IMG/VR virus record: IMGVR_UViG_3300035698_022389
Span: 1 to 64,000 of that record
DNA from: a virus
Reading direction: 5' to 3' (one strand)
Length of the DNA: 64,000 nt
Position numbers and translations under genes: made by a program. Below the pieces are notes generated by a model. It searched no databases and was not told where the DNA came from. It saw nothing but the letters and a program-made list of their open reading frames with translations. Shown one piece after another: positions 1,928 to 47,348 of the stretch (within the stretch, counting starts at the first letter, position 1; every line of letters starts with the position of its first letter).

Positions 1928-2260
1928 ATGTCCAAGATGCGTGGCCGAAAGGCTCCTTCCCCCGAGGAACAGGAGCTAAATCAGCAGTTAGTGATTGCTG
2001 AGCAGGCATTGTTACGGGCAGCTACAGCCTGTCAGAGAATTGGTAAACAAGATCGGATTGTGGGCAGAAGAGCTTTACAGGCTTCTCGGAATATACACGC
2101 TGCAATTAATTCTATTGGAGAGATAGGGAATATGGTTCCAAATATTGATTCTTCAGACCCTGATATGATGTCCGAAAAGCAGCGGATTGCTTTATTTAGG
2201 GAGATACGGAACGCCCGATTGGAAAAACATAAAAAAACTCGTCTTAGGAGATCTGAATAA
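1928..2260 (+). CDS. Hypothetical protein (110 aa)
   Basis: Tightly packed ORF; its stop overlaps the portal start (TAATG). Confidence 0.65.
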   Translation: MSKMRGRKAPSPEEQELNQQLVIAEQALLRAATACQRIGKQDRIVGRRALQASRNIHAAINSIGEIGNMVPNIDSSDPDMMSEKQRIALFREIRNARLEKHKKTRLRRSE

Positions 2261-14586: not shown

Positions 14587-14691
14587 GAAGTAAACTTTTT
14601 CAATCTTTCATCTATATTTGAGGATACCTAAGTAGAGGGCATAGTGCGCCTCGTTTTAACTTGAGTATGGATGACCTTACAAGGAGGACAT

Positions 14692-18023: not shown

Positions 18024-19552
18024 TGTCAAGAAAGCAGCGTGAACGTATGACGTGGGCTGTGGGCCATCAGGCGAGTGCCCCGCCCGCAACTCCTGGTTAC
18101 AACGTGGAAGACCAAGACCATCCTGCAAAGCAGGGGCCGGACCCGGACATGCATAAGTATGAAGACGGGGACACCTCAAGCTGGGCAGAAGATGTCCGTC
18201 AACCCCCTTACCCGCAGGGCAACCCTCCTGCAATTCCTGGTTATGATGCCGAAGATCAGGATCATCCTGCACATGAATCTCCACCTCGTGTGTCTCTGAC
18301 GGCAGCTGTACGGAAACGTGCCAGTAAATGTTTGAAGCTTGCTACCATTCAGTTGGTTGGTAAGAAAATGACCAAAGCTCAAGTTGAAGACCATGCAATG
18401 GATTTGATGGAGTTAGGTGATTCTCAAATTGATAACATGTTGGAACGTTTTGGTGGTGGTTTCCTTGCCGATGAATTGGAAGTTGATGACGACCTTTTGG
18501 CAATGGATGACATGGACGACCTTTTGGCAATGGATGATATGGATGACATGGCTCTTGAAGAGCCTATCCTTGCTTCCAATGACAATATCATGGCCAAGCT
18601 TGAAGCTCTGACTGCTGAGGTTGTAGCTATGAAGAGTGGGTCAGATGACGATGAGGACGACGATGAGGACGGCGATGAGGACGGCGATGTAGAAGGTACT
18701 CAGAATGACCCTAAAGGTCCTACTCTTTGTCCAAAAGTGAAAGCATCCGACGACCCTATTGTCCAGGAATTCGATTCATATGATACGGGTAAAACTGGAT
18801 TCGTTGGCATCGATGAATGGAAGGGCAGCAAAACTGTCTTTGCAGCACTGGATACTGACAATGACCAAATTCTGGCTCGTGTTGACCTCATGACAGCATG
18901 TGGTGAGGTTCCTGCTACCATTGAAGCAGGTTTAGAACCTGAAGAAATGGCTATGTTGGCTGAGATGTCCATTGATCCAATTGATCCAATTGATGAAATC
19001 CTCGAAGATGAAGTCCTCGAAGATGAAGTCCTCGAAGATGATCCAATGGAACTGGAGCTTATGGATGAGCCTATTATCGAAGAACCTATGATTGTCGCTG
19101 AAGACGATGCTGGTATGTTTGGTATGACTCATGACCCAATGGGTTTGTCCGACAATGCTCCTGTTATGTCTTCTGAAGACGATGCTCTACTTCAAGAAAT
19201 TTTCGGTGGTAAGGTTGCCAAGAAATCTGACGATGACGAAGAAGTTATCGAAGAAGAAGTTGAAGGCAAGAAGAAAGCCAAGAAATCCGATGAGGACGAA
19301 GAAGTTATCGAAGAAGAAGAAGTTGAAGGCAAGAAGAAAGCCAAGAAATCCGATGAGGACGAAGAAGTTATCGAAGAAGAAGTTGAAGGCAAGAAGAAGA
19401 AAGCAGCAGTCCAACGACCTCAACCTCGTAAAAAGAGTGCTGGTGTTCAGCAGGTTGGTAACATGACCAAAGCTGCTGCCAACAGTGAGATGCTTGAACT
19501 TCAAAACATGTGGGCATCTTCCCCTGACGTGTCCAAAGTTTTCGGTAGCTAG
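18023..19552 (+). CDS. Acidic scaffolding-like protein with two EF-hand-like loops
   Basis: Very D/E-rich; between protease and capsid genes; internal repeats PGYxxEDQDHPA x2 and KKSDxDEEVIEEEVEGKKKA x3. Confidence 0.65.
   Translation: MSRKQRERMTWAVGHQASAPPATPGYNVEDQDHPAKQGPDPDMHKYEDGDTSSWAEDVRQPPYPQGNPPAIPGYDAEDQDHPAHESPPRVSLTAAVRKRASKCLKLATIQLVGKKMTKAQVEDHAMDLMELGDSQIDNMLERFGGGFLADELEVDDDLLAMDDMDDLLAMDDMDDMALEEPILASNDNIMAKLEALTAEVVAMKSGSDDDEDDDEDGDEDGDVEGTQNDPKGPTLCPKVKASDDPIVQEFDSYDTGKTGFVGIDEWKGSKTVFAALDTDNDQILARVDLMTACGEVPATIEAGLEPEEMAMLAEMSIDPIDPIDEILEDEVLEDEVLEDDPMELELMDEPIIEEPMIVAEDDAGMFGMTHDPMGLSDNAPVMSSEDDALLQEIFGGKVAKKSDDDEEVIEEEVEGKKKAKKSDEDEEVIEEEEVEGKKKAKKSDEDEEVIEEEVEGKKKKAAVQRPQPRKKSAGVQQVGNMTKAAANSEMLELQNMWASSPDVSKVFGS
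19217..19400 (+). repeat. Tandem repeat of about 60-63 bp x3 (AKKSDxDEEVIEEE(E)VEGKKK)
   Basis: Units start at 19217, 19277 and 19340. Confidence 0.93.
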
Positions 19553-19787: not shown

Positions 19788-20486
19788 ATGCCTATTGGAC
19801 TCGGACAGGCCAGTGGTGGGTGGACTGAATCGTCAGCAGCTCTGAGAATACTATATGCTGGTATTCGTAATACAGAGGGTTTGTTGACTGATGATGCCTA
19901 TACCCAAACTAATCCACCGGCAGTGGCAACAAATGTATCCACAAAAGTTGATACCACCATCAATGGTGTTCTCAGCGGCAGTGTAGCATTTGCTCGCCCA
20001 GATGTAGGAGCTGATTCTATCGGTGGTGCCGGCAGTGCAGCCAATCAGTTGGCCATGCAAAATGCTGTTGCCCAAGCAATCGGTTTTAAAGCTCTCGGTG
20101 TGTTCATCAACACGGCAATCGGTAATGCCTATGAGAACCAGCCTGGTGTGGCAAGTGGACGTGGACCGTATATGTCCCAAATGGGAACCTACGGTAACCA
20201 ACTGTATGAAACAGCCCTGATCGGTGATTCGGTCGGTGGTGACCCAGCAGCTGGTGCAGCCATTGTGTATTACACGGGTGTCGGCCTCATTGCATCACGA
20301 AACGGCTATCTAACCCCTGCTCAGCAGTTGAACGCAGCTGCTAATGCCATTATCTCTTGTGATGATGTCACGATAGCAGCCGAATCGTATGTATTGAACA
20401 CTGATAATTCTTCAACCCTGCTTGGTATCGTAAAGATGCCACCGGATGCGACTCAAGCCGAAGTCGTGTACGACCAGCGTATATAA
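19788..20486 (+). CDS. Probable head decoration / minor capsid protein
   Basis: G/A-rich structural composition, strong RBS, directly upstream of the MCP. Function inferred from position. Confidence 0.55.
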   Translation: MPIGLGQASGGWTESSAALRILYAGIRNTEGLLTDDAYTQTNPPAVATNVSTKVDTTINGVLSGSVAFARPDVGADSIGGAGSAANQLAMQNAVAQAIGFKALGVFINTAIGNAYENQPGVASGRGPYMSQMGTYGNQLYETALIGDSVGGDPAAGAAIVYYTGVGLIASRNGYLTPAQQLNAAANAIISCDDVTIAAESYVLNTDNSSTLLGIVKMPPDATQAEVVYDQRI

Positions 20487-20496
20487 GGAGGTACTC

Positions 20497-21369
20497 ATGT
20501 CTATTGATAATGCCGTGAAACAAAGGCTGATCGGTGAGTACATCAAGACCCCTGCAGGTCGTGCTAAACTCGCTGCTTCTATGACTCAACCCCTTCGTAC
20601 TCGTCGTGATTACGCCGCTGTGGGACGTAAGACCTTTTTGGTCGAACAACTCCCTGATGGTGCATTGCCTCTGTACGATAAAGACCCTGATGTGACAGCA
20701 TTCGTGGTTGGTGAAGAAGGTCAGAATATCCTGGCTGTTACCAAACCAAGACGAGTCATTTTCCCTCTGTTTGAAGTTGCTTCAAATCCAGAGATTCCTC
20801 TTACCCAGATTAAAGAACGTAGATTTGATCTCATTGAAAGAGCCCAAGAATTGGCCCGTGCCCAAATTCAGGCTGCTGAAGATGAGAGAGTGTTTGCAGT
20901 TCTTGACAGTATTGCCACAGCAGGTTTCGACTCTCTGCCAGCTCAGATGAACGCTGACATCCCAGTCATCGCTCCTATTACTGGTCAGATTCTTGCCGAT
21001 GCCTTTTCCCTAGTGGAACGTCATGACCTTCGTGTAGCTCGTGTGTACATGAATGCCCGTGACTATGCTGATCTCCGTAAGTTCGGTCGTGACATCCTGG
21101 ACATCGAATCACAGGCTGCTTTGCTTAAAACTGGTTTGATGGCTACCCTCTGGGGTGCCCAGATTGTCACAAGCCGGTTGGTCCCCGTTGGCACCGTGTA
21201 CATTTGTTGCGAACCGGAGCACTTTGGCAGAATTCCCGTTAGAACGGAGCTCACCGTTTTGAGTGCTGATGATCCGAAGGCTCGGACAATAGGCTTCTCC
21301 GTTTTCGAAAATTTGGGTATTGGCGCCTTCAACCCTCGGGGTCTGGCTCGACTGACCATCACCAGATAA
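20497..21369 (+). CDS. Major capsid protein (290 aa; HK97 fold expected)
   Basis: AAGGAGG RBS before ATG 20497. KLAASMTQPLRTRRDY...LPDGALPLYDKD, 'AQIQAAEDERVFAVLD' and GAQIVTSRLVPVGTVY resemble large-phage capsid proteins; followed by a strong terminator. Confidence 0.85.
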   Translation: MSIDNAVKQRLIGEYIKTPAGRAKLAASMTQPLRTRRDYAAVGRKTFLVEQLPDGALPLYDKDPDVTAFVVGEEGQNILAVTKPRRVIFPLFEVASNPEIPLTQIKERRFDLIERAQELARAQIQAAEDERVFAVLDSIATAGFDSLPAQMNADIPVIAPITGQILADAFSLVERHDLRVARVYMNARDYADLRKFGRDILDIESQAALLKTGLMATLWGAQIVTSRLVPVGTVYICCEPEHFGRIPVRTELTVLSADDPKARTIGFSVFENLGIGAFNPRGLARLTITR

Positions 21370-35451: not shown

Positions 35452-35535
35452 GTTTTCGGTAAAAAGTTAATTATTTTTTATTAGTGTAGTTTGAGGTTGC
35501 TTGGAGAGATTATAATCTAGTGGTGGAGGTTTAAT

Positions 35536-35961
35536 ATGAGTGTTTCTGTAGAAAGGTTAATTCATCGGTATATGCAAGCATTTGTGTCTAAACAATCCCC
35601 GAAGGCCGTTGTTTATATTAGTAAAGACTCTGTATATTTTCAGGGTGCCCTTCCTTGTGGGGTTATGGGGTCTATTAAAGATATGATGAAAACTCATAAG
35701 AAGGGGTTGGATTTGTGTAAACAGACGGTTTTAGCATTACGCAAGGCATTTCCAACATGTAAAGCATGGAAATTACCCACAAAAGATTTTGATTATCTTG
35801 CAGGGGAGACTTCAAGTAGACTTTTCCCTTTGTTTTTTTCAACAGGACAACCAGCTTCTTTAGGGGTGTTTCAATTTGAACTTATGGATGTAGATGAAGT
35901 TGAGGCCATCACTCTTAAAGTGATGAAACATTTGGGTTGGGAAATTAAAATAATGGAATAA
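35536..35961 (+). CDS. Hypothetical protein
   Basis: GGAGG RBS; N-terminal VERLIHRY motif. Confidence 0.65.
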   Translation: MSVSVERLIHRYMQAFVSKQSPKAVVYISKDSVYFQGALPCGVMGSIKDMMKTHKKGLDLCKQTVLALRKAFPTCKAWKLPTKDFDYLAGETSSRLFPLFFSTGQPASLGVFQFELMDVDEVEAITLKVMKHLGWEIKIME

Positions 35962-35968
35962 GGTAGTT

Positions 35969-36451
35969 ATGAAAAAACAAACATCTTTTCAAAAATTCAG
36001 TCCTGAAGGATTAAAGCAGGCATTAATTAAATTAGCTTCTGATAATCCTGAACTAAGGAAGCATTTAGTACCCCTTCTGAAAGAAGCTGGGTATAAACGT
36101 AGACCTGAGTTTACAATGGAGATTTCAAGGGGGGGCGCTGAATTTGGGTTTTATTACCCCTACGTGAAAACCAACATGGAAGAACAAAAAGAGAAATGCT
36201 GGGAAGAATTTAAGGCTATTGTAAAAATCATTTTTAAGAAATATAAGGGTAGGAAACTATATTTTAATTCTAATTTATCTGATATAATAGTTTTACCAAA
36301 AGAGTTTATGTTACATAAAAACAAAAAACCTAGTATTAGTGTCCCTGATGTGTTTAAGCATAAGAGTTTAAACATTGAAAAAGAAGTAAAACAGATTGTT
36401 AATCGCTTTGGTTGGGTTTTAGATATTGGTTGGGTCGCATATTATCATTAA
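35969..36451 (+). CDS. Hypothetical protein with N-terminal LRKHLVPLLK motif
   Basis: LIKLASDNPELRKHLVPLLKEA. Confidence 0.7.
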   Translation: MKKQTSFQKFSPEGLKQALIKLASDNPELRKHLVPLLKEAGYKRRPEFTMEISRGGAEFGFYYPYVKTNMEEQKEKCWEEFKAIVKIIFKKYKGRKLYFNSNLSDIIVLPKEFMLHKNKKPSISVPDVFKHKSLNIEKEVKQIVNRFGWVLDIGWVAYYH

Positions 36452-36499
36452 TCCAAGTCTGCAAATAAAGTTGGCCAAGGAAAGTATATGGTGTTTTAA

Positions 36500-37177
36500 A
36501 TGAAAAACTTTATCAGACATGCAACTTTGAGGGCATCCTCTAAAAAAGTTATTGATGCTTTTATCTTAAAGAAACCCCTTGAAAACCAATCTATGACTTC
36601 AACGGGGAAAGAACTCTCAAGTATTTCGATGGGTGGCCAACTACTTGCCAAATGGGTAGGCCGAAAAATAGCATTTGTAGGATTAGAGTCTTCTCGGACT
36701 GTATCCTCTATAGTTAGGTATCTTACGAAAAAGGCTGGTCACTCAATGGTGACTTTCGATTATGACCGAAAGGGTTTTAATCGGTCTATTCATTTTCAAA
36801 CGGGTGGGGATGTAAACGGTCCTCAGTATGATGGTTATGTTTATGCCAGGTTGCCTTGGCGGGATAACCAGTTTGTGGGCCAGTTAACTTGGACTGAGTA
36901 TCAGGATGAGTACAGTGTCCGAATGATTGAGGTTTTACCTGAATACCGAAGGACTGGTATTGGTAAAGCTCTGATGGAGTATTTTATGAAAGATCAAAAG
37001 ATTACTAAATCTGATATTAATACAGGGATGAGAACTCCTGATGGTTCTAAATTTTGGGATAAGTTATCCAAAGGGATGGAACACCCTGAGAATTTAAGAG
37101 CTAAAGTAATTAAGCTGGCTCACGAGAACCCTAAGTTACGAAAGCATTTAGTTCCTATTTTGAAAGAGGCTGAATAA
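36500..37177 (+). CDS. GNAT-like acetyltransferase domain protein with C-terminal LRKHLVPILK motif
   Basis: VRMIEVLPEYRRTGIGKALME (GNAT motif A); VIKLAHENPKLRKHLVPILKEA at the C-terminus. Confidence 0.7.
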   Translation: MKNFIRHATLRASSKKVIDAFILKKPLENQSMTSTGKELSSISMGGQLLAKWVGRKIAFVGLESSRTVSSIVRYLTKKAGHSMVTFDYDRKGFNRSIHFQTGGDVNGPQYDGYVYARLPWRDNQFVGQLTWTEYQDEYSVRMIEVLPEYRRTGIGKALMEYFMKDQKITKSDINTGMRTPDGSKFWDKLSKGMEHPENLRAKVIKLAHENPKLRKHLVPILKEAE

Positions 37178-37437
37178 TGGGAACTGGTAATAATAACAAC
37201 GATATAACATTTTTTGATTCTGGCCCAAACAAAACGAAATACATGCTAGCTACAGTAAATTCTACTATAAATAGCGATAAAGATACAAACAAGTATCCAC
37301 CGACTGAAAGACTAATAACGACTGAAACTATTGAAGTATATATTGGGGTTGGTGATCGTGCAGAATTTGTTACACATATTTTTGATGCAAAGAAGGCTGA
37401 AAACCAAAGGTTAAATAGAAAACTGAGTTCTTATTAG
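37177..37437 (+). CDS. Hypothetical protein (86 aa)
   Basis: TAATG coupling to the upstream gene; no motif. Confidence 0.45.
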   Translation: MGTGNNNNDITFFDSGPNKTKYMLATVNSTINSDKDTNKYPPTERLITTETIEVYIGVGDRAEFVTHIFDAKKAENQRLNRKLSSY

Positions 37438-37464
37438 GTGGAAAAGGGAAGGAAACCTTTCAAA

Positions 37465-38763
37465 ATGTCTAAAGATTTATCAAAGTTAGTAAAGAAGTTA
37501 GCTTCTGATAATCCTGAACTAAGGAAGCATTTAGTACCCCTTCTGAAAGAAGCTGTTGTACCTATTAAACAAATGGCAAAAAAGGCTTCAATTAAAACAG
37601 TGGAGCAGTTTGGATTATTTAAAGTTTATGGGCCTTATACAGATATAGCTCCTTTGATTAAGTCTTTGAAGCAGTGGGGTTTTAGATATGAGCCTGTTCA
37701 TAAAGTTTGGGAGATGCCTTTAGAAAAGGTAACCCCAGCTTTACGTAAAAGATTGGATAAATTAATTGCAAAACAAACTCCTTGGGAGGATATTTTGCAA
37801 CAGGCTGTAACAAACGGTTGGGTTTTAAGTTTTGTTTATAACGAGGAATTGATTCAAGATGCTCGCAAATTAAAAGGGACTTGGGATAAAAAACATAAAT
37901 ATTGGGTATTCCCGACAGCAAGGGCTTATAAGGAGATGTCTGATATTGTTAAAGATAAAGAAGACATTTTGAATGAGATACTAAAAAAGAAAGAGGGTTA
38001 TCTGCAACAAAAAAAGGAGGCCCTGCGTAAGGGTTGGTTTGTACAGTTTGATTATGATACAGATTTGATAAAAGAAGCCAAATCTTTAAATGGCTTATGG
38101 GACACTAATCAGAAGGTATGGGTATTTCTTGATATTTCTGATTATAAGAAAATGAAACGTGCCATACATGAGGATGATGATAAAGATGTCCCCTCAAATG
38201 CTATTGTACGCAGTCAATCTAGTAAGAACAAGACTCCTCGTTTTCAAAAAGGAGATTCCTTTAGAGACCCTGAAAATCATAAGGTTTTAACAGTTTTCAA
38301 CATAATGTCCAAATACTATGCTGAGGATGGAAGGTCCTTTGGTTTGGGTATGGATAGAGGTTGGGCACATTCGTTTTATTGTAAACTGGCCGGAAAAAAA
38401 GGGGTGGCTGAAGTAGAATTACAAGAATTTAAAGAATTGTCTCGGCAGCAAATGGTTAAGGCATACCAGAATATGGTTAAGATGTTTAAGAAAAAAGGGA
38501 AATTCCCCAAACCTGGCTCAAAATTGATAACTTTACGTGGGAAAAAACATATGGAATCCGATACCTCCTCTATTCTTTATGGTGGCGGGCATTGGTTTGT
38601 GGTTGAGAGTGGTAAAATATGGTATGTAGAGAACAACGGGGCAGATGGTGATAATTGGGCTCATAACAATATTGCCACATCTGGTGCGGGGGCATTAGGG
38701 TGGTATCTCCCTTATTCTGAGGGGTTAGCTGAGGAGCTTAAAATTATGGATAAGAAACTTTGA
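37465..38763 (+). CDS. Tagged protein with three internal repeats (DUF5710-like A(K/R)xLxGxWDxxxKxW)
   Basis: N-terminal KLASDNPELRKHLVPLLKEA; repeats WGFRYEPVHKVW, ARKLKGTWDKKHKYW, AKSLNGLWDTNQKVW. Confidence 0.7.
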   Translation: MSKDLSKLVKKLASDNPELRKHLVPLLKEAVVPIKQMAKKASIKTVEQFGLFKVYGPYTDIAPLIKSLKQWGFRYEPVHKVWEMPLEKVTPALRKRLDKLIAKQTPWEDILQQAVTNGWVLSFVYNEELIQDARKLKGTWDKKHKYWVFPTARAYKEMSDIVKDKEDILNEILKKKEGYLQQKKEALRKGWFVQFDYDTDLIKEAKSLNGLWDTNQKVWVFLDISDYKKMKRAIHEDDDKDVPSNAIVRSQSSKNKTPRFQKGDSFRDPENHKVLTVFNIMSKYYAEDGRSFGLGMDRGWAHSFYCKLAGKKGVAEVELQEFKELSRQQMVKAYQNMVKMFKKKGKFPKPGSKLITLRGKKHMESDTSSILYGGGHWFVVESGKIWYVENNGADGDNWAHNNIATSGAGALGWYLPYSEGLAEELKIMDKKL

Positions 38764-39140
38764 TGTGGTGGGTTTATGTAATTCAATCTCAAGAAGTCCG
38801 GACAGGTAAAAAAGGAAATATTTTACCAGGGTTTCATTATGTAGGGTGTACTACTGATCCGGCTCGAAGGTTGCGTGAGCACAACGGTTTGTTGTCTGGG
38901 GGCGGGAAATATACCAGCAAGCACCGTCCTTGGGTGGCCCGAAGTCTTTATGGTCCTTATTTTGGCAGGTCTGAAGCAATGAAGGCTGAGTATGCTTTAA
39001 AGCATGGGAAACGCAGTACAGCTCGAACACGGTGGTCTGTAGAAGATTCCCCTTGGTGTCGAGGATTAGGTCCGAACGATCCGTGGGTGGTCAACGGTAT
39101 TTTTCCTATAGAACTCTGTAAGAAGGAGGAGTTTTTATAA
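38760..39140 (+). CDS. GIY-YIG nuclease, SLX1-like
   Basis: WVYVIQS...HYVGCTTDPARRLREHNG..GGGKYT..HRPW...EAMKAE. Confidence 0.82.
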   Translation: MMWWVYVIQSQEVRTGKKGNILPGFHYVGCTTDPARRLREHNGLLSGGGKYTSKHRPWVARSLYGPYFGRSEAMKAEYALKHGKRSTARTRWSVEDSPWCRGLGPNDPWVVNGIFPIELCKKEEFL

Positions 39141-39180
39141 GGTGTTGGCTGAAATAAAAAGAAAGCAAGGAGAAGTTAAA

Positions 39181-39705
39181 ATGAGTAATTTACGTTCAGA
39201 ATTAGTGAAGCTAGCCAGTGACAACCCTGGGTTTCGAAAACACCTGGTTCCTATTCTGAAAGGGGAGCCTAGAAGTATGAAAAGGGCAAATGTTATGAAA
39301 AAAGAAGCTGGTGGTATGGCTAGCGCCTTAGATTTAGTGTTTTTGATCATAAGTCAGGAATCCTCTTCCAAAGGTCAGAAGATGTTTATGGATACTAAGA
39401 AAGCTCTTGAGTCTGATGAGCAGTCCAAGAAATTGATGTCCGAGGTGTTAAGGGGGGTGGCAAGATCCTTAATACTTGACCAAAAGGAAAACACGGCTTT
39501 AAACTACATCCGTATGGCAATGAAGAATGTTAGATCCGCCGGATCTGCCAGGAATTCTATTTTCAAGGCTGCTCATGCTCTTGGTATCAAACTTCCAAGT
39601 TCTATATTTGCATCTAATGACTCTGAATTACAGGAACAATTACAGAAGCTGGCCAATGAGAACCCAGAAGGTATCAGGAAGCATTTGGTTCCTCTTTTAA
39701 GATAA
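39181..39705 (+). CDS. Hypothetical protein with the tag at both ends
   Basis: AAGGAG RBS; N-terminal LRSELVKLASDNPGFRKHLVPILK, C-terminal LQKLANENPEGIRKHLVPLLR*. Confidence 0.7.
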   Translation: MSNLRSELVKLASDNPGFRKHLVPILKGEPRSMKRANVMKKEAGGMASALDLVFLIISQESSSKGQKMFMDTKKALESDEQSKKLMSEVLRGVARSLILDQKENTALNYIRMAMKNVRSAGSARNSIFKAAHALGIKLPSSIFASNDSELQEQLQKLANENPEGIRKHLVPLLR

Positions 39706-39792
39706 CTTGGACTTTGATTTAGGTGGTTAGAAGATTACTTAAGTGAAATTGAGTTGGAAATTATAATACTTTCTATGTGAAAGGGTGGTGGA

Positions 39793-40581
39793 ATGAGTGA
39801 TACAAAATATTTACAGTTATTTCCAGTAATAGATAAAGCAGTAAAGAAATATTTATCTAAGTCCAAATATATAAAACGAATTAGGCTCAAAGGCAAAGAT
39901 AAACATTCTATTCTATATAGTGTGGATTGGGCATTTGAACCTCATAAAGATGCTCCAATCCCAGAATACTTTGCGGTAACTAGCACAGGGAGAACTCTTT
40001 ATTTGGAGTTGAGTGTCCCAGGGTTCTTTAGTTATTCATCACCAACTGAAATGTCTATGGATTTAGAGATTGCTCTTATCAACCCTGTTAAGGTTGAACA
40101 GAAGATTAAAGAGATTGCAAGAGCTATTGACCCTATAGCTTCCAAGGTGTTGACCGAAATAAAAAGAAAGCAAGGAGAAGTTAAAACGAGTAATTTACGT
40201 TCAAAGTTAGTGAAGTTATCCAATGAGAATCCTGATGGTATCAGGAAACATTTGGTTCCATTGCTGAAACAGGCTTTGGCTGGTCCAGATAAGAGTGGTC
40301 GGAATTGGAAAGAAATCAATGATTCCAAAGGTCATCGGTGGATGTGGTCTGGTAAACCTGGTCCTGTATTTGGGGTTTACGAATTTGAAGGCCCAGGAAT
40401 CCCTCTATACCGTCTTCAGACAATTTTAGACGATGGGGGTATGCTGAAATGGAAACGTCAGGTGAAAGACCCGAAAATGGCTTTTGCTCAAGCAGCCTCC
40501 GTTTGGAAAATGTTCCATGCTGATGGGACTATGGGCGGCAATCTTTTAATGGGTTGGAAAAGGATGGCTTCTAATAGATGA
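39793..40581 (+). CDS. Two-domain hypothetical protein with an internal tag
   Basis: Internal LRSKLVKLSNENPDGIRKHLVPLLKQA separates two regions. Confidence 0.7.
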   Translation: MSDTKYLQLFPVIDKAVKKYLSKSKYIKRIRLKGKDKHSILYSVDWAFEPHKDAPIPEYFAVTSTGRTLYLELSVPGFFSYSSPTEMSMDLEIALINPVKVEQKIKEIARAIDPIASKVLTEIKRKQGEVKTSNLRSKLVKLSNENPDGIRKHLVPLLKQALAGPDKSGRNWKEINDSKGHRWMWSGKPGPVFGVYEFEGPGIPLYRLQTILDDGGMLKWKRQVKDPKMAFAQAASVWKMFHADGTMGGNLLMGWKRMASNR

Positions 40582-40622
40582 ACGCTATTTAGAATTATTT
40601 CTAGTTATTTAAGGAAAATACA

Positions 40623-41519
40623 ATGAGTAATGGAATTAAAGACCTCAAAATATTGTTGGATATTAATGCTACATATCCTAAATTTGGTTCCCCTGAGTAT
40701 GAGCAGATGGTTACAAAGGCTGTTCTGCTCAAGAAGCCCTTGTTAGTAGCTTATACAAAGTTTGTTCAAAAAGAGGCATCTAAAGACAGGTCTGCCGATC
40801 CTGCAATGGTGTTCTTAGGTTCTATGGCTATGAATATTAATAGGGATTTTACAAAGCTGATTACCTCCACATCCAAGAACTATCCTGATTGGATATCTTT
40901 GTACAATGGTTTGGTTCCTAGAGGTAGAAAAATAGGTGGTAAAGCATATAAGTCAGCTTTTGCTAAAGGATTTGATGCAGCACATGGTCGAGGGACATTT
41001 GTTAGGGCTGAATTAAACAACAAGAAACAGAGGGCTTCTAGTAATTTACGTTCAAAATTAAGCCGTGATGAGAAAATACCAAGATATACAGAGTTATTAT
41101 CAGCCAGGATTTCCAAATTGGCTTCGGACTATCCTGAGTTACGAAAGCATTTGGTCCCTTTATTGAAACAGGGTTCCATTTTCAAATATGAGTCTTCTAC
41201 ACCTATAGACAAAAGGGTTCTGGTTAGAAACCTTAATAAAGTCCTTGGGAATGTTTCTAGAGGATTCTTCAATGATGAGCATTGGAGAGGGCCTAAGAGA
41301 GTATGGGATGCTTTGAATAAGATAGGTATAACTTGGGAGCAGACAAAGAACTTCTATGATGGGAAAATGCCCCCACAATCAAAGACTTGGAAGTTTGAAG
41401 TTGAGTTCACCTCTAAAAAAGGTAGGGCAGCTAAATTATATGGTCACATGGTAGCATCTGGTGCTGGTTCTGTAAATGACCCCTTGAGCCGTTATGATAT
41501 TGTCGTTTACGTAGGATAA
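40623..41519 (+). CDS. Two-domain hypothetical protein with an internal tag
   Basis: SNLRSKL...ISKLASDYPELRKHLVPLLKQG in the middle. Confidence 0.7.
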   Translation: MSNGIKDLKILLDINATYPKFGSPEYEQMVTKAVLLKKPLLVAYTKFVQKEASKDRSADPAMVFLGSMAMNINRDFTKLITSTSKNYPDWISLYNGLVPRGRKIGGKAYKSAFAKGFDAAHGRGTFVRAELNNKKQRASSNLRSKLSRDEKIPRYTELLSARISKLASDYPELRKHLVPLLKQGSIFKYESSTPIDKRVLVRNLNKVLGNVSRGFFNDEHWRGPKRVWDALNKIGITWEQTKNFYDGKMPPQSKTWKFEVEFTSKKGRAAKLYGHMVASGAGSVNDPLSRYDIVVYVG

Positions 41520-41538
41520 AATTTAAGGATAAATTAAG

Positions 41539-41991
41539 ATGAGTACTTTACGAGATAAAGTAATAAAACTTGCCCACAAGAATCCTGAACTTAGGAAACA
41601 CCTGGTTCCGTTACTAAAGAGTGCTGGTGGTGGGATATATCAAATTTTCTTTAATATATTTAAGGAAGCCTTTAAAGAATCTTGTACTAAACTATACACT
41701 CAATTTTACCGTGATTATCGTTGGGAGGATATAGAAGGAGTGTCTTCAAGTATCCAACCAGGACTTTGGCAAGTTGTTTCTAAATATAGTCCTATGGTTG
41801 CAGTTTCTTATCATGTGACTGGTACGAAACTGACTATTACTTGTAGTCTTTTAAATCTTCATCATTCTCTATCTAAAATGGAAAAGGTTATTCCTTTGGG
41901 GGAATTTCTAGCCCGTGATATGACTGAAAAAGACATGCAAATCCTTATTATGAAATTCATTATTAGTTGTGCTAAGAGGGTTTGGAGATAA
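41539..41991 (+). CDS. Hypothetical protein with N-terminal tag
   Basis: LRDKVIKLAHKNPELRKHLVPLLKSA. Confidence 0.7.
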   Translation: MSTLRDKVIKLAHKNPELRKHLVPLLKSAGGGIYQIFFNIFKEAFKESCTKLYTQFYRDYRWEDIEGVSSSIQPGLWQVVSKYSPMVAVSYHVTGTKLTITCSLLNLHHSLSKMEKVIPLGEFLARDMTEKDMQILIMKFIISCAKRVWR

Positions 41992-42139
41992 GAATCCTAA
42001 ACTCCGACCTCATCTGGTTCCATTATTGAAAATAGCAGCTATTTTCAATAATGATTTCTCTGAGCTAATCGATAAAAGGATTCTGGTCAGGAAACTTAAT
42101 AAGGAGAATCTTATTATACAGGATGTAAGTTATAAATGA
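41969..42139 (+). pseudogene. Remnant tagged ORF (not in the supplied ORF track)
   Basis: Frame from 41990 reads KNPKLRPHLVPLLKIA...IDKRILVRKLNK...*, resembling IDKRVLVRNLNK in 40623..41519. Only a GTG at 41969 is available as a start. Confidence 0.55.
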
Positions 42140-42175
42140 CCACTAAAATGGGATTAACCTCAAGGAGAAATTACG

Positions 42176-42706
42176 ATGAGTGATTTACGTTTAAATTTAG
42201 TGAAGTTAGCCAATGATAACCCTGATGGTATCAGGAAGCATTTGGTTCCTCTATTAAAACAGGCTAAAACCTATGACTTTGAGGAAGGGGACCCCATAGG
42301 AACTAATGAGAAAATGTGGGCTGAATATAAACCTAGTCTTAAACTTCAAGTACAGAAGTTGGAGCAGCTCGGTCTGAGATACATTAAAGTGCAACGTCAT
42401 GGTATGTTGGCTTTGTCATTCAAATATAAGAAATGGACAATTGAGATATCAATCCTTCGGTTATTTGAGTTGAGAAACGTAAAAGGTCTGGGTGCTTTTG
42501 CCAGTCGTTTCGGTAAATTAGAACAGTTAATCGAAGACGAGATCCAAAATATCAAGCTGGCTGGTGGCCCACGTCAATATTCCCCGTTCTTCTCAACCTA
42601 TTATAGTAAGGTGAAAGCCATCATGGGAGGGGCAAAGACCAAAGGTTTGGCTATATCTTTTGTTACAGAAGTTATCAAAGAGATGGGTGTTCGGATTTGG
42701 ACATAA
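42176..42706 (+). CDS. Hypothetical protein with N-terminal tag
   Basis: AAGGAG RBS; LRLNLVKLANDNPDGIRKHLVPLLKQA. Confidence 0.72.
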   Translation: MSDLRLNLVKLANDNPDGIRKHLVPLLKQAKTYDFEEGDPIGTNEKMWAEYKPSLKLQVQKLEQLGLRYIKVQRHGMLALSFKYKKWTIEISILRLFELRNVKGLGAFASRFGKLEQLIEDEIQNIKLAGGPRQYSPFFSTYYSKVKAIMGGAKTKGLAISFVTEVIKEMGVRIWT

Positions 42707-42764
42707 TGAAATTTTAGGTTTTCAAAGTTAAAAAAAGTTTTGTAAGATATATAGCTTCTCGTAA

Positions 42765-42808
42765 AATGGCAAAACCCAGCAGGAATTAACCTGACGGGTT
42801 TTGTCGTT
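42765..42808 (+). terminator. Long stem-loop closing the tagged-ORF cluster
   Basis: AATGGCAAAACCC...GGGTTTTGTCGTT outer stem with inner CAGG/CCTG. Confidence 0.6.
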
Positions 42809-42934
42809 TGTGGTTTTGGCTGTGGATTTTTCTATGGAGACCTTAATTGGGTGCTGCTGTCAGAGTCTGATGTTCTGAATAGGTTCCTTATAATCCATAG
42901 GTAATAGGGGCTGTTTCCAGTATTGGAGTTTAGC

Positions 42935-43195
42935 ATGGCTGATAAAAAAACAGCAGGAGTTGCAAGTCGTCGGGTATATTCATATGTGGCTGATGATGGA
43001 ACTGTCTTTTATTCGTTTACAAAGACGAGACAGACGGTTTCCACTGGCAAACGATTAGTATTGCAAAGTCGGAATGGAACCCCTCTGCTCCCGTTCATGG
43101 TTTTCATGAGAGGACAGGCAGATAAAGAAGCTTCCGTCGAGGATGATTCTCGGCTGGAAAAAACAGAACAAATGAAAGGACAAACAGATGATTGA
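42935..43195 (+). CDS. Hypothetical protein
   Basis: GGAG RBS before ATG 42935; overlaps the next gene. Confidence 0.6.
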   Translation: MADKKTAGVASRRVYSYVADDGTVFYSFTKTRQTVSTGKRLVLQSRNGTPLLPFMVFMRGQADKEASVEDDSRLEKTEQMKGQTDD

Positions 43196-43643
43196 AGACA
43201 CTCAAGACATGGCCTCCGTAACCCAAGACTCCGAAATCAAAGAAGCACCTGCTTCAAGTCTTCCAACAGGGGAAGCTCTTGCTAACGATGACCCGCCCAC
43301 ATCAATTGGTGATGAACCCGAGGGTGGCAATTCTGACCCTTCATTCTTGGGCACTGTTGAGAAATCTGAACAAGACAGCATTATGGCTTTGCAGCAGAGT
43401 CATCAACAGCTTGTGTTTCAGCTGGGGAATACCGTTCTCCGTATATTTGAAACAGTGAATCGGGTTGGTGGCCTTGAAGATCAGATTCAGGGTGTTTACC
43501 AGGCCATCGGTAAGCGTTTGAATATCGGATCAAAAACTCGTTGGTCAGTGATGCAGGACGGATCAGTCCGAATCATCCCTGAGCAGCCCAGTGGTCCACA
43601 GGTCGTTCCTCCGCCGTCGGAGGGTGATAAATCGGAGGGCTAA
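43188..43643 (+). CDS. Hypothetical protein with a coiled-coil segment
   Basis: AAGGA RBS; tightly packed. Confidence 0.6.
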   Translation: MIEDTQDMASVTQDSEIKEAPASSLPTGEALANDDPPTSIGDEPEGGNSDPSFLGTVEKSEQDSIMALQQSHQQLVFQLGNTVLRIFETVNRVGGLEDQIQGVYQAIGKRLNIGSKTRWSVMQDGSVRIIPEQPSGPQVVPPPSEGDKSEG

Positions 43644-45056
43644 ATGTGTGCAGCAGGATGGGGACCAGCCCCAGGTGATCAACCACTTCCACCTCAAAAT
43701 GGGTCCGTAATAAGCCCATACATTGCAGGAGTTCTTGACCTTAATTGGGATGACCCATCCCTGCTGGCTAAAAATGCTGCTTGGGTGGTAGTAGGGGTTA
43801 ATATCTATCGGAGTGATGTCTCTGATAGAGGCCCCTTCTACCGCATTAATGAATTCCCTGTCGGGGGGACTTTTTATCGAGATTGGACTCAGAATGTTCA
43901 AGTTACAGAAACTGTAGCTTGGGCAGCTTGGACATATAAGGGTACAGGCCCTAATACCCGACAGTATTCATTTTCTACCACACAACACCCAGTCGTCAAA
44001 CAAGTACCTGAGCCTCCCTACGATAGGCCAACTCCTGCAAACATGCCCTCAGATGTGACTATCGTCATTGATGGTGTAGAAGTCCCCGTTAATTCCGTAT
44101 TCGGCCCCACAGGGGAGATTGTCCTCATTAATCAAGGTGTTTTCAACGTGGCTACGGAGAAGATTGAACCTGCATTACTCCCAACGGAAGATGCTGTAGT
44201 GGAGATATCATATTGGGTGAGTAAGAACCATATCCGTTCCAGCCTTGATACCAGCTTGTTTTACCGTTTGACTACTGTAGTAATAGATACCAGTACTCCG
44301 AGCGGTTATAAAGAAACTGAATTAGAATGGTGTAAGCCTATTTTGACCGCCACGGTTGAGGATATGGATTACATTTGGAGAGAGGCTGTCCGACGAAATG
44401 CCTGGATTCTACAACAGGGTGGGGAACGGGTAAAAATCTTCATTCGACGAACAACTGGGGTTCCTTGTAGCTGTGGACTTGATCCGAAGACAAAAGAGTA
44501 TTTAGGGCAGCACTCACAAAGATGTGTTTCCTGCTATGGCACAGGTTTTATTGGTGGGTTTGAGGGTCCCTATGAGGCAATTATTGCTCCCGATGACTTT
44601 GAGCGTCGGATGAGTCAAGGTCCTACAGGTCGTCGTAAAGAGCATACTGGTGAAGTTTTCATGGGGCCAAGTCCCGTTGTAACCCAACGCGACCTTATCG
44701 TGAAACAGACCAATGAACGGTATTCGATTGCTCCTTCCAGACGGCCTACTAACCGTGGTAATATGCTTCAACAGCATTTTACCATTGGGTATTTGGATGA
44801 ACAGGACATCAGGTACAAAGTACCTATTGATGGTGTGGCTGATCTCGTCCGTCCTCAGACTCGATATGGTTTCCGACAATATCCTTCGATGCCAGTGGAC
44901 GGGGAACTTTCATTCCCAGAATCCACAGCTCCTGATCAGGCAGCCTATCCTGAAGGTCCTGACTCTCAAACCCCGATGCAGACAGATAAGCAACCATGGG
45001 CAGAAGGGACTCAACAGAGAGGGCGTTCGCCGGTTTGGGAAAACCAAAACGAATGA
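43644..45056 (+). CDS. Probable neck / head-closure protein with zinc-binding insert
   Basis: GGERVKIFIRR...PCSC...RCVSCYGTGFIGGF; lies between head and tail genes. Function inferred. Confidence 0.55.
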   Translation: MCAAGWGPAPGDQPLPPQNGSVISPYIAGVLDLNWDDPSLLAKNAAWVVVGVNIYRSDVSDRGPFYRINEFPVGGTFYRDWTQNVQVTETVAWAAWTYKGTGPNTRQYSFSTTQHPVVKQVPEPPYDRPTPANMPSDVTIVIDGVEVPVNSVFGPTGEIVLINQGVFNVATEKIEPALLPTEDAVVEISYWVSKNHIRSSLDTSLFYRLTTVVIDTSTPSGYKETELEWCKPILTATVEDMDYIWREAVRRNAWILQQGGERVKIFIRRTTGVPCSCGLDPKTKEYLGQHSQRCVSCYGTGFIGGFEGPYEAIIAPDDFERRMSQGPTGRRKEHTGEVFMGPSPVVTQRDLIVKQTNERYSIAPSRRPTNRGNMLQQHFTIGYLDEQDIRYKVPIDGVADLVRPQTRYGFRQYPSMPVDGELSFPESTAPDQAAYPEGPDSQTPMQTDKQPWAEGTQQRGRSPVWENQNE

Positions 45057-45704: not shown

Positions 45705-46332
45705 AGCTCAGATTATTTGCACTTGCCCATCCATATGGATACAAGATTTGAACTTAAATATGAAACGTGGCCAGTCGGCAATGGTTTCAGAATCTAAAGC
45801 TAAGGCTTCAACGGATTTGGGTTTAGCACGTAGGAATGGTGGCGTTAGTATTACGTATGTACAACGATTTCAGGAACTTAAACCCCCTCAAGTAGAACCT
45901 GTGGTTCAGGTATCGAAGAAAGTACCCTTACCAACTCCTTTGCATCAACCTGAGTCTCCTGTCCTTCCTGCTGAAAGAGTCAGGGTGGAGAGAATGACCT
46001 TGGACGAGGATGCTTTGGTGGATAAACTGGCAGCCAAAATGAATTCATTACGAAGCAGTAACACCAATTCTTTAATAGATTCTTTGATAGGTGAAGTTCA
46101 GGCCATGAGGAAAGAGTTCTCAGAGGGTCAAAAGAACCATGGTCAGATTGTGAAAGAGGTTGTTCATTCTGAGGGTAGGGTAAAAGAAGATGTCCCTATG
46201 TTTATCCCTAAGACTATTATGGGGAAAAAAGCAGGGGATGTTAAGATAGAGATTGAAGAAACTACTTCAGAAAGCACTGTGGATGAGGCTTCGGAAGCTT
46301 TACGTGCTTTACGGAAAAAGGAGAAATCATGA
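45697..46332 (+). CDS. Hypothetical protein
   Basis: GAGG RBS before ATG 45697; ATGA overlap with the next gene. Confidence 0.6.
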   Translation: MIEAQIICTCPSIWIQDLNLNMKRGQSAMVSESKAKASTDLGLARRNGGVSITYVQRFQELKPPQVEPVVQVSKKVPLPTPLHQPESPVLPAERVRVERMTLDEDALVDKLAAKMNSLRSSNTNSLIDSLIGEVQAMRKEFSEGQKNHGQIVKEVVHSEGRVKEDVPMFIPKTIMGKKAGDVKIEIEETTSESTVDEASEALRALRKKEKS

Positions 46333-47348
46333 CAGATGAAAAAACACCTGTGATTCCAGTACCTTTTGGCGTGGGGTGTGATATTGGGACTATGAATATT
46401 GTGTCTGCCCGTCGTGGAAAAGAAGGGATTACGACCAAACGTATGCGTGATGTCTTCATCGATTTGCCTATAACTGCCAAGAAGATGTTGAAATTGTCTT
46501 CTACCAGCTTTGTTGAACGAGAAGACGATGTTTTGATTCTTGGGGATGCTGCTTTGGAGACGGCTAATGTTTTTGGAACCCCTCCTCGACGCCCACTTTC
46601 GGATGGAATAATCTCGGCTAGTGAAATAGACAGCTTGGAAGTCCTTGGTATGCTTATCAAGAATGTGCTGGGTAAACCCAGGACTCCGAACGAGGCTTGT
46701 TATTTCTCTGTACCAGCAGAACCGATAGATAGGCCTGACAAGGACATAATTTACCATCGTGGAGTATTTGAACGAATTGTTGCTGAGTGTGGATATACTC
46801 CATATGCAGCCAATGAAGCTATGGGTATTGTGTATTCTGAAACAGCTAATGAAGGATTTTCTGGTGTAGGAATCTCTTTTGGTAGCGGCATGACGAACGT
46901 TGCCCTATCCATCAACACCATTGAAGGTCTGACGTTTTCCATTGCCCGTGGCGGCGACTGGATTGATGCAGGTGCTGCTAGTTCTGTCGGCCAGACTCAG
47001 GCACGTATATGTGCATTGAAAGAGAAGGGTTTTGATTTGATGAAGCCTGAAGGTCGGGAACAAGAAGCTCTGGCCTTCTATTATAAGTCGGCCATTGACT
47101 ATGCTCTGGATAACATTGAAGAACGTTTCAAGGCCATTCAAAATCAATTTGTTTTGGCTAATCCTGTCCCCCTCGTAGTGTCAGGTGGTACGAGTTTAGC
47201 AGGTGGGTTCATGGAGTTTTTCAAGTCTGTCTTTGAGAAACGGAAGAAGTTCCCTATCGAGATTTCCGAGATTCGACATGCTCAGGAACCCCTGAATGCC
47301 GTTGCTTACGGTTTGTTGATTCAAGCTATCCAAGAACACGAGGATTAG
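46329..47348 (+). CDS. Actin-fold ATPase (MreB/FtsA/ParM-like)
   Basis: Phosphate-1 GCDIGTMNIV, connect-1 NEAMG, phosphate-2 SFGSGMTNV, GGDWID, adenosine VVSGGTS. Confidence 0.8.
   Translation: MTDEKTPVIPVPFGVGCDIGTMNIVSARRGKEGITTKRMRDVFIDLPITAKKMLKLSSTSFVEREDDVLILGDAALETANVFGTPPRRPLSDGIISASEIDSLEVLGMLIKNVLGKPRTPNEACYFSVPAEPIDRPDKDIIYHRGVFERIVAECGYTPYAANEAMGIVYSETANEGFSGVGISFGSGMTNVALSINTIEGLTFSIARGGDWIDAGAASSVGQTQARICALKEKGFDLMKPEGREQEALAFYYKSAIDYALDNIEERFKAIQNQFVLANPVPLVVSGGTSLAGGFMEFFKSVFEKRKKFPIEISEIRHAQEPLNAVAYGLLIQAIQEHED

What the first reader, a model, noticed from the sequence alone, without database searches (positions are those of the whole stretch)
35969..42706. A 25-aa peptide tag (L-x-x-x-L/V-x-K-L-A-x-x-N-P-x-L/I-R-K-H-L-V-P-L/I-L-K-x-A) grafted onto many unrelated small proteins
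Seen: 10 copies in 9 ORFs or remnants (about 36030, 37100, 37500, 39190, 39640, 40200, 41110, 41550, 41990, 42185). It occurs at the N-terminus, the C-terminus, both ends, or between two domains. The attached cargo domains are unrelated to each other (a GNAT, DUF5710-like repeats, several unknown folds). Seven of 10 copies end in K-x-A. Known: T4 internal proteins carry a short capsid-targeting sequence removed by the prohead protease. Inference: this may be a modular capsid-loading/ejection address, with K-x-A as the protease site, creating a plug-and-play arsenal of injected effectors. Position independence fits a binding tag better than a folded catalytic domain.
Basis: partly seen in the sequence, partly recalled or inferred. 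Interest (0 to 1): 0.88.

Follow-up and report, generated by a model that had tools for sequence, protein, structure and literature searches.

The report
Portable helical tag in huge phages
Nine neighbouring small genes of an uncultured huge phage carry the same ~27-residue helical peptide at the start, end or middle of otherwise unrelated proteins; relatives put it on well over a thousand protein families, so it looks like an undescribed docking label, most plausibly for loading proteins into the phage head, though that function is untested.

Summary
There are exactly 10 copies of the motif (L-R-x-x-L-x-K-L-A-x-x-N-P-x-L-R-K-H-L-V-P-L-L-K) in 9 ORFs at 35,969-42,706 and none elsewhere in the 133-kb record.

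- **Selection:** it acts on the peptide. In the 8-codon core, 204 codon differences are synonymous and 25 are not.
- **Cargo:** 12 cargo modules fall into at least 10 families. One cargo family carries the tag at the N-terminus, the C-terminus or both.
- **Spread:** a profile finds 1,352 protein clusters (50% identity). Genomes tested hold 5-18 tags each. All belong to one uncultured huge-phage clade whose capsid protein is 84-91% identical. No tag was found in Bacillus phage G, in Tunturiibacter phage Tunturi_5, or in a strict-pattern scan of 185,579 prokaryote genomes. No Pfam, PHROG or PDB family covers it.
- **Function:** head loading is plausible but only circumstantial. Tags sit in late structural hot spots, on homologues of head-module polyprotein pieces, and on paralogues of a scaffold-like head protein.
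- **Cleavage:** K-x-A as a protease site is not supported.

This scan has reported other shared tags in other huge phages. This one is longer, helical and position-independent. I class it as a new variant of a known kind (address tags). Confidence in head loading is about 0.4.

The parts
35999..36091 (+). Tag copy 1, near the N-terminus of o35969 (ORF 35969-36451, 160 aa)
   Evidence: HMM E 1e-17; alignment A1
37082..37174 (+). Tag copy 2, at the C-terminus of the GNAT protein o36500 (ORF 36500-37177, 225 aa)
   Evidence: HMM E 5e-17; GNAT Pfam E 4e-7. The same GNAT-then-tag order is seen in P0003
37465..37557 (+). Tag copy 3, N-terminal in o37438 (ORF 37438-38763). The likely true start is ATG 37465, giving M-S-K-D-L.
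   Evidence: HMM E 8e-16; 58-bp exact repeat shared with copy 1
39178..39270 (+). Tag copy 4, N-terminal in o39142 (ORF 39142-39705). The likely true start is ATG 39181, behind a GGAG ribosome-binding site.
   Evidence: HMM E 2e-17; leader comparison
39619..39702 (+). Tag copy 5, at the C-terminus of o39142
   Evidence: HMM E 3e-15. Relatives of this cargo carry the tag at N, C or both ends
40186..40278 (+). Tag copy 6, internal in o39793 (ORF 39793-40581). It arose by fusion: the leader of copy 4 is kept, with ATG changed to ACG.
   Evidence: HMM E 6e-17; alignment of the leaders
41085..41177 (+). Tag copy 7, internal in o40623 (ORF 40623-41519), between two modules
   Evidence: HMM E 2e-16. 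P0118 is tag plus the C-module alone; P0070 joins the o39793 N-module, a tag and the o40623 C-module
41539..41628 (+). Tag copy 8, at the exact N-terminus of o41539 (ORF 41539-41991)
   Evidence: HMM E 3e-18
41954..42040 (+). Tag copy 9, truncated (first helix lost, K to P), in the remnant ORF o41969 (41969-42139)
   Evidence: HMM E 2e-14; the remnant matches the o40623 C-module at E 4e-4
42176..42268 (+). Tag copy 10, at the exact N-terminus of o42176 (ORF 42176-42706)
   Evidence: HMM E 8e-18; AF2 model of the tag with pLDDT 85-92
35536..35961 (+). o35536, an untagged first gene of the island. Its relatives in other phages carry an N-terminal tag.
   Evidence: BLAST to tagged P0103, L009|9169 and L015|11872; profile link to the o35969 cargo at E 2e-4
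38760..39140 (+). Small GIY-YIG protein inside the island, with no tag, conserved in the islands of relatives
   Evidence: Pfam GIY-YIG E 4e-10; 69-87% identical in L009, L011, L012, L013, L015 and L019

Best explanation
The tag is a small, basic, two-helix docking module: helix 1 is L-R-x-x-L-x-K-L-A, there is an N-P break, and helix 2 is L-R-K-H-L-V-P-L-L-K. It addresses diverse accessory proteins to one shared partner encoded by this phage clade. The most likely partner is the assembling head, either the acidic scaffold-like core proteins or the inner face of the very conserved capsid protein. Tagged proteins would then be enclosed in the procapsid and could enter the next host with the DNA.

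Shown: the tag is portable, position-independent, under strong peptide-level selection, restricted to one clade, and a site of recombination that shuffles cargo. Inferred: the partner, head loading and delivery. I see no sign that the tag must be cut off.
For: Portability: one cargo family has the tag at the N-terminus (L026), at the C-terminus (L020/P0221) or at both ends (this window). There are mosaics joined at tags (P0070, P0118, L009|7134). There are tandem and multi-copy forms of up to 5 tags.

Selection on the peptide: 204 synonymous versus 25 non-synonymous codon differences in the 8-codon core.

Shape: AF2 gives helices at residues 2-14 and 16-36 with pLDDT 85-92, followed by a low-confidence linker. 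The tags are basic, pI about 9.4-11 for 8 of 10.

Link to the head:
- The island lies between the neck gene and conserved late genes in 8 related loci. A second hot spot lies just upstream of TerL.
- In G005, a 342-aa homologue of two modules of this phage's portal-to-capsid polyprotein ends in this tag, and its neighbour carries one too.
- In L044, a tagged ORF directly follows the capsid gene.
- Multi-tag proteins (P0005, P0008, P0051, P0067, P0086, L032|9980) carry the F-D-P-x-E-I-G...G-E-F-T-Q-Q-E-N motif of the scaffold-like protein next to the prohead protease (window 14671-15735). L032|9980 also has its D-D-K-K repeats.
- 16 tags are followed directly by a second module (E-A-L-K-K-Y-L..H-P.A-D) that also occurs in window 5571-6998, between the portal gene and the polyprotein.

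Clade restriction: the capsid protein is 84-91% identical in the six tag-bearing genomes compared. Tags are present in 3 of 4 further records of the clade and in LR745208.1. They are absent from phage G and Tunturi_5.
Against: There is no direct evidence that any tagged protein is in a virion; the clade has no cultured member. In more complete genomes (G001, G002, G008, G009) tagged genes are scattered on both strands, mostly away from recognisable structural genes. No protease-type cleavage motif flanks the tags. The cargo is almost all of unknown function, so an effector role is not shown. The uniformly basic pI of the island proteins in this window (10 of 10 at pI 9 or more, against 21% elsewhere, p 2e-5) is weaker across the wider family (p 0.04) and may partly reflect the island's low G+C.
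Confidence: 0.4

Rival explanations
1. The tag docks the proteins to a common partner that is not part of the virion. Candidates are a host hub (nucleoid DNA, RNA polymerase, ribosome), a phage-made intracellular structure such as the conserved actin-like (volactin-type) filament, or a chaperone or translocase.
For: Tagged genes are scattered across both strands in near-complete genomes. The tag is basic and helix-break-helix, which is compatible with binding nucleic acid or an acidic surface. A volactin-like gene is conserved 4 kb downstream. Some cargo has DNA-related domains (WGR, FUR, DUF2958).
Against: It does not explain why tags occur on paralogues of the head-module scaffold-like protein, or on homologues of the portal-to-capsid polyprotein modules. 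It also does not explain why the hot spots sit inside the late structural block.
Confidence: 0.27
2. The tag is a homotypic association module. Tags bundle with each other, so tagged proteins co-assemble into one multi-protein body. This could itself be the head core, in which case the reading merges with the best explanation.
For: Many proteins have 2-5 tags, including tandem pairs and tags at both ends. Scaffold-like low-complexity proteins carry 3-4 tags. The hydrophobic spacing in both helices suits helix packing.
Against: Most tagged proteins have a single tag (144 of 228). The o39142 model gives only moderate or low confidence for its two tags. No contact information was available to test pairing.
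Confidence: 0.18
3. There is no shared function. The motif is the conserved remnant of one diverged paralogue family, or a DNA cassette (leader, ribosome-binding site and first codons) spread by recombination or by the island's GIY-YIG endonuclease.
For: There is a 58-bp exact repeat between two tags. A conserved ~40-nt leader with a ribosome-binding site travels with the tag. A GIY-YIG gene is conserved in the islands.
Against: Synonymous differences dominate in the core (204 against 25). The peptide is therefore conserved and the DNA is not. Tags occur at C-termini and inside proteins, where a leader cassette makes no sense. They sit on a GNAT fold and at least 10 unrelated families. The family has 1,352 clusters.
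Confidence: 0.05

Closest known systems
Capsid targeting sequence (CTS) of phage T4 internal proteins IPI-III and Alt (Mullaney and Black 1996; reviewed in PMC3012670 and PMC5694885)
   Same: A short conserved peptide shared by otherwise diverse accessory proteins of one phage. In T4 it directs them into the scaffolding core of the prohead.
   Different: The T4 CTS is 10-20 residues, strictly N-terminal and removed by gp21. The gp21 site, after L/I-x-E, is cited from my own knowledge. This tag is about 27 residues, helical, found at either end, internally or repeated, and has no conserved cleavage motif beside it. There is no sequence similarity.
C-terminal helix-turn-helix coat-binding domain of the phage P22 scaffolding protein (my own knowledge; also used to load foreign cargo into P22 particles)
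   Same: A small, basic, two-helix unit that docks onto the inside of an HK97-fold shell. It can carry unrelated cargo. Here the tag also occurs on scaffold-like proteins.
   Different: No sequence or fold match was found. Binding to the capsid protein is not shown here. In P22 the domain sits on one scaffolding protein and not on hundreds of families.
Cargo-loading (targeting) peptides of encapsulins (my own knowledge)
   Same: Terminal peptides on unrelated cargo enzymes that bind the interior of an HK97-fold shell. They occur at the C- or N-terminus.
   Different: Encapsulin peptides are about 10-residue extended motifs (G-S-L-type) in cellular operons. This tag is a 27-residue helical unit confined to one phage clade.
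Polyvalent proteins of phages and conjugative elements (Iyer et al. 2017, PMC5512222, as cited in PMC7824862)
   Same: Large multi-module proteins thought to be delivered with the DNA; GNAT modules occur in them. Some tagged proteins are such chains, with a tag at each joint (P0003 with 5 tags, P0004 with 4).
   Different: Most tagged proteins are small single-module proteins. I found no description of this tag in the papers searched.
Other shared peptide tags noted by this scan in other huge phages (M-N-R-Y-D-I..., M-N-W-Y-K..., R-V-A-x-R-aromatic)
   Same: The theme is the same: one short peptide on many unrelated proteins of a huge phage. The R-V-A-x-R-aromatic helix occurs in this very phage's polyprotein. 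It sits 22 residues before this tag in one G005 protein.
   Different: Those tags are 8-14 residues and mostly locked to the N-terminus. This one is twice as long, predicted with confidence as two helices, and position-independent. The two tags co-occur in one protein, so they are probably not redundant.

Membership tests
T4-type capsid targeting sequence (CTS) | Located at the extreme N-terminus only | tested here: not met
   In 228 tagged proteins, 171 tags are N-terminal, 122 internal and 41 C-terminal. In the window the split is 6 N-terminal, 2 internal and 2 C-terminal.
T4-type capsid targeting sequence (CTS) | Length of 10-20 residues | tested here: not met
   The conserved block spans about 27-30 residues. 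CTS length is taken from PMC5694885.
T4-type capsid targeting sequence (CTS) | Followed by a prohead-protease site (L/I-x-E in T4, A/S/G-x-E in SPN3US and phiKZ) | tested here: not met
   After the tag the consensus is K/R-x-A-A/G. E at the required position occurs in only 96 of 334 tags (3 of 10 in the window). No motif lies upstream of internal tags.
T4-type capsid targeting sequence (CTS) | Directs the protein into the prohead | not testable with these tools
   There is no cultured member of the clade, so no proteomics is available.
P22-type scaffold coat-binding helix-turn-helix | Small basic two-helix unit | tested here: met
   AF2 gives helices at 2-14 and 16-36 with pLDDT 85-92. Tag pI is 9.4-11 in 8 of 10 copies.
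P22-type scaffold coat-binding helix-turn-helix | Sequence or fold homology to the P22 domain | tested here: not met
   The profile found no PDB sequence match at E<0.2. Foldseek found no match.
P22-type scaffold coat-binding helix-turn-helix | Binds the major capsid protein | not testable with these tools
   This needs a binding assay or a structure.
Encapsulin cargo-loading peptide | Terminal peptide shared by unrelated cargo next to an HK97-fold shell gene | tested here: inconclusive
   The peptide is shared by unrelated cargo, and the shell is HK97-fold (phrog_2522). However, genes are often far from the shell gene, and the G-S-L-type consensus is absent.
Any curated protein family (Pfam, PHROGs) | A model that covers the tag | tested here: not met
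   No Pfam or PHROG hit covers the tag in 9 window proteins or in about 160 tagged proteins.

The most novel reading that the evidence does not exclude
The tag is the docking hairpin by which this clade's scaffold-like core proteins bind the procapsid. It has been co-opted as a plug-and-play, position-independent head-loading address for more than a thousand accessory protein families. Recombination at the tag itself keeps shuffling the cargo between genes and polyproteins.
Probability: 0.3. Interest if true: 0.85.

Novelty: new variant of a known kind. Interest (0 to 1): 0.64.

Why it matters
If the tag is a head-loading address, it gives a sequence-only way to list the protein cargo that an abundant, uncultured group of ~400-540-kb phages carries into its hosts. 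That cargo would be mostly proteins of unknown function, and candidates for early host takeover and counter-defence. It would also be a compact tag that works at either end of a protein, useful for packing foreign proteins into phage-derived shells. Even if the partner turns out to be something else, a 27-residue module under this much selection, present on 1,352 protein clusters and absent from every curated library, marks an undescribed interaction network in huge phages.

Tried and rejected
- **Complex prediction**: tag against capsid protein, scaffold-like N-terminal part and protease N-terminal part. It gave no verdict (score 0.00, the partner's own fold uncertain). This counts neither for nor against binding.
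- **Fold search of the o39142 model** and **of the tag model**: no usable match.
- **Protein atlas look-ups**: nothing usable.
- **PDB sequence searches:** tag profile, the 470-aa downstream protein and the protease. No relatives were found, so the protease family and its likely cleavage preference stay undefined.
I used the search for related loci for context instead.
I repeated it with a 42-aa alignment.
- **Promoter and terminator scan of the island**: promoter-like sites are at chance level (31 against 28.8 expected); terminator-like sites are about twice expectation (17 against 8.6), but none marks an operon boundary.
- **Scaffold-like protein against Tunturi_5 gp329** ('virion structural protein'): no similarity.
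- **Same motif as the polyprotein's R-V/L-A-x-R/K-aromatic helix:** rejected. The first helix looks superficially alike (L-I-K-L-A-x-x-N), but the HMM gives only E 0.6 at one polyprotein site, and both motifs occur side by side in one protein.
- **RNA or DNA element:** rejected on the excess of synonymous differences.
Full report
**Setting.** The window is the first 64 kb of a 132,879-bp IMG/VR virus record that CheckV rates as 25% complete. That implies a phage of roughly 500 kb. Nearly all genes are on the + strand. I could place the following genes:

| Gene | Coordinates |
|---|---|
| Large terminase | 3-1673 |
| Intein-bearing portal | 2260-5532 |
| 2,531-aa polyprotein | 6991-14586 |
| Prohead protease | 16407-18023 |
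| HK97-type major capsid protein | 20497-21369 |
| Volactin-type actin homologue | 46329-47348 |

I did not re-test that, but its homologues flank the island in relatives. The finding lies directly after the neck gene.

- A loose regex and a profile HMM built from the copies both find exactly ten copies. All are on the + strand between 36.0 and 42.3 kb, each at E 1e-14 to 1e-18.
- The next best match in all six frames of the whole record has E 0.6.
- The invariant positions are L5, P17, R20, H22, L23, V24, P25 and L27. K11, L12, N16, K21 and K28 are nearly invariant.
- Six copies are at or near N-termini. For o37438 and o39142 the likely true starts are ATG 37465 and ATG 39181, which put M-S-x-x-L at residue 1.
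- Two copies are C-terminal (the GNAT protein o36500, and o39142). Two are internal (o39793, o40623).

**The peptide is conserved, not the DNA.** In the eight core codons (R-K-H-L-V-P-L-L), 204 of 360 pairwise codon comparisons differ synonymously and only 25 differ non-synonymously. Leu, Pro, Arg and Val each use three to five codons. This excludes an RNA or DNA element and shows strong purifying selection on the peptide.

**The cargo is unrelated.**
- With tags masked, the twelve modules of 50 residues or more show no pairwise BLAST similarity.
- Iterated profiles link only o35536 (untagged) to o35969 (E 2e-4). The remnant o41969 matches the C-module of o40623.
- One module is a GNAT (E 4e-7). 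One has DUF5710-like repeats, below threshold in Pfam but matching phrog_24323 at 5e-7. The rest match nothing.

**Portability and shuffling.**
- The o39142 cargo family ends in a conserved M-F-A-S. It carries the tag only at the N-terminus in L026, only at the C-terminus in L020/P0221, and at both ends here.
- P0118 is a tag plus the o40623 C-module alone.
- P0070 and L009|7134 join the o39793 N-module, a tag and the o40623 C-module. This is what a deletion between two tags would give.
- The internal tag of o39793 keeps the ~40-nt leader and ribosome-binding site of o39142, with ATG changed to ACG. It therefore arose by fusion of a tag-led gene to its upstream neighbour.
- Tags 1 and 3 share a 58-bp exact repeat, a sign of recent conversion.

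**A large, clade-restricted family.**
- The 30-position profile finds 1,352 clusters (50% identity) at E of 0.001 or less among 1.84 billion representatives, 58 of them at E of 1e-10 or less.
- In 228 retrieved proteins, 171 tags are N-terminal, 122 internal and 41 C-terminal. Among single-tag proteins the split is 109, 27 and 8.
- N-terminal tags start M-S-x-L-R, with the Met three residues before the conserved Leu.
- Chains with up to five tags exist. One of them, P0003, starts with a GNAT followed by a tag, as o36500 does here.
- Per-record counts range from 5 to 18 tags:

| Record | Size | Tags |
|---|---|---|
| Two complete genomes | 536 and 436 kb | 8 and 7 |
| 94%-complete genome | 497 kb | 18 |
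| GenBank LR745208.1 | 485 kb | 11 |

- The capsid protein is 84-91% identical in the six tag-bearing genomes compared, although their terminases are only 55-64% identical.
- The nearest cultured phages by capsid protein are Tunturiibacter phage Tunturi_5 (50%) and Bacillus phage G (39%). Neither has a tag.
- A strict-pattern scan of 185,579 prokaryote species genomes confirmed none.
- No Pfam, PHROG or PDB entry covers the tag. I found no paper describing it.

**Anatomy.** With a 42-sequence alignment, AF2 predicts residues 1-30 at pLDDT 85-92 as two helices (2-14 and 16-36) broken at the N-P. The chain then falls to low confidence. The tag is basic. After the tag the consensus is K/R-x-A-A/G (A in 173 of 334). 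C-terminal tags stop right after P-L-L-K/R. Internal tags are preceded by a K/G/A/S-rich linker with helix-capping S/A-S. I read K-x-A as the helix end and linker. It is not an evident protease site, and nothing resembling the Glu-P1 sites of T4, phiKZ or SPN3US proteases is conserved there.

**What ties it to the head.**
1. *Synteny.* In eight related loci the tagged genes occupy the same slot, between the neck gene and three conserved genes (homologues of 42923-43195, 43188-43643 and 43644-45056). The content varies from two to nine tagged genes while the flanks stay 85-94% identical. A second hot spot lies just upstream of the terminase.
2. *Polyprotein homologue.* In G005 the space between portal and capsid holds split versions of this phage's polyprotein. 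A 342-aa protein homologous to polyprotein residues 444-590 and 974-1080 ends with V-K-K-V-A-A-R-W, the other helix tag noted earlier in this scan, followed 22 residues later by this tag. The next gene also carries a tag. In L044 a tagged ORF follows the capsid gene.
3. *Scaffold-like paralogues.* The acidic protein at 14671-15735 sits two genes before the protease gene (15757-16407 lies between), and its orthologues hold this place in every head module examined. It carries an F-x-P-x-E-I-G...G-E-F-T-Q-Q-E-N motif and D-D-K-K repeats. The motif recurs between tags in multi-tag proteins with charged low-complexity linkers (P0005, P0008, P0051, P0067, P0086). L032|9980 has the motif twice, the D-D-K-K repeats and a diverged N-terminal tag.
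4. *Second module.* Sixteen tags are followed at once by E-F-x-S-P-E-A-L-K-K-Y-L-x-x-H-P-x-A-D-K-S-K-H-x-V. This module also occurs in the protein at 5571-6998, between portal and polyprotein, where the other helix tag precedes it.

**What weakens it.**
- No tagged protein has been seen in a virion.
- In the more complete genomes most tagged genes are scattered on both strands among genes I cannot place.
- The cargo is almost all unknown: GNAT, WGR twice, DUF2958, DUF7007 and FUR among about 160 proteins.
- The island proteins here are uniformly basic: 10 of 10 at pI 9 or more, against 21% elsewhere (p 2e-5). Across the wider family the bias is weak (p 0.04). The island is also low in G+C (0.355-0.40 against 0.42-0.47), which by itself favours Lys-rich proteins.

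**Verdict.** The reading as a portable docking tag is well supported. Head loading is the best single explanation, and I put it at about 0.4. The rivals are a non-virion partner (0.27), tag-to-tag co-assembly (0.18) and no shared function (0.05). The tag fails the defining features of the T4 CTS (position, length, adjacent cleavage site), so it is not a member of that family. It may work like it, and perhaps more like the P22 scaffold's coat-binding helix pair or an encapsulin loading peptide. This scan has already reported other shared tags in other huge phages. One of these was later given low odds for its bold reading. That tempers the score but was not used as evidence here.

Noticed in passing
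window 38760-39140: A 126-aa GIY-YIG (URI-type) protein sits inside the tag island, overlapping the stop of o37438. It is 69-87% identical in the islands of six relatives, far better conserved than the tagged genes around it. It may drive the recombination that shuffles the island.
   Followed up: partly
window 42021-42053: A 33-nt near-perfect palindrome (15-bp stem, 3-nt loop) overlaps the 3' end of the truncated tag in remnant ORF o41969. It is unique in the window. It could be a terminator-like hairpin or a recombination scar.
   Followed up: partly
window 5727-5800 (in ORF 5571-6998) and 16 tagged proteins elsewhere: A second short conserved module, E-F-x-S-P-E-A-L-K-K-Y-L-x-x-H-P-x-A-D-K-S-K-H-x-V, follows the tag directly in 14 of 228 tagged proteins and is repeated at three successive joints of P0004 (two of them behind an HMM-scored tag, the first behind only a degenerate one). 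It also occurs in the protein between portal and polyprotein. No Pfam family covers it.
   Followed up: partly
window 14671-15735 and 18023-19552: Two very acidic proteins flank the prohead protease (pI 4.9 and 4.1). Both have low-complexity repeats and share the unit V-E-G-K-K-K-A. The first also has the conserved F-N-P-E-E-I-G...G-E-F-T-Q-Q-E-N motif that is kept in all head modules of the clade. They are likely scaffold or core proteins.
   Followed up: partly
window 20497-21369: The 290-aa capsid protein is 88-91% identical in the clade genomes searched (over 1,800 clusters in the protein database, the 120 listed at 87-100%), while terminase is 55-64% and most other genes are 30-60% identical. 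That is unusually strong constraint on a capsid protein.
   Followed up: partly
window 35500-42800: The island has the lowest G+C of the window (0.355-0.40). All ten of its ORFs of 100 aa or more have pI of 9 or higher, against a median of 5.25 for the rest of the record.
   Followed up: yes
window 19788-20486: The 232-aa Ala/Gly/Asn-rich protein just upstream of the capsid gene occupies the position of the capsid decoration protein gp26 of Bacillus phage G.
   Followed up: no
window 46329-47348: A full-length volactin-type actin homologue (Pfam E 1e-72) lies 4 kb downstream of the island. It is 71-87% identical in five related phages.
   Followed up: no
window 14342-14392 (polyprotein residues 2452-2467): The polyprotein C-terminal region has L-D-K-L-A-N-D-N-E-D-L-R-P-E-D-P. 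This resembles the first half of the tag but is not significant (E 0.6).
   Followed up: yes
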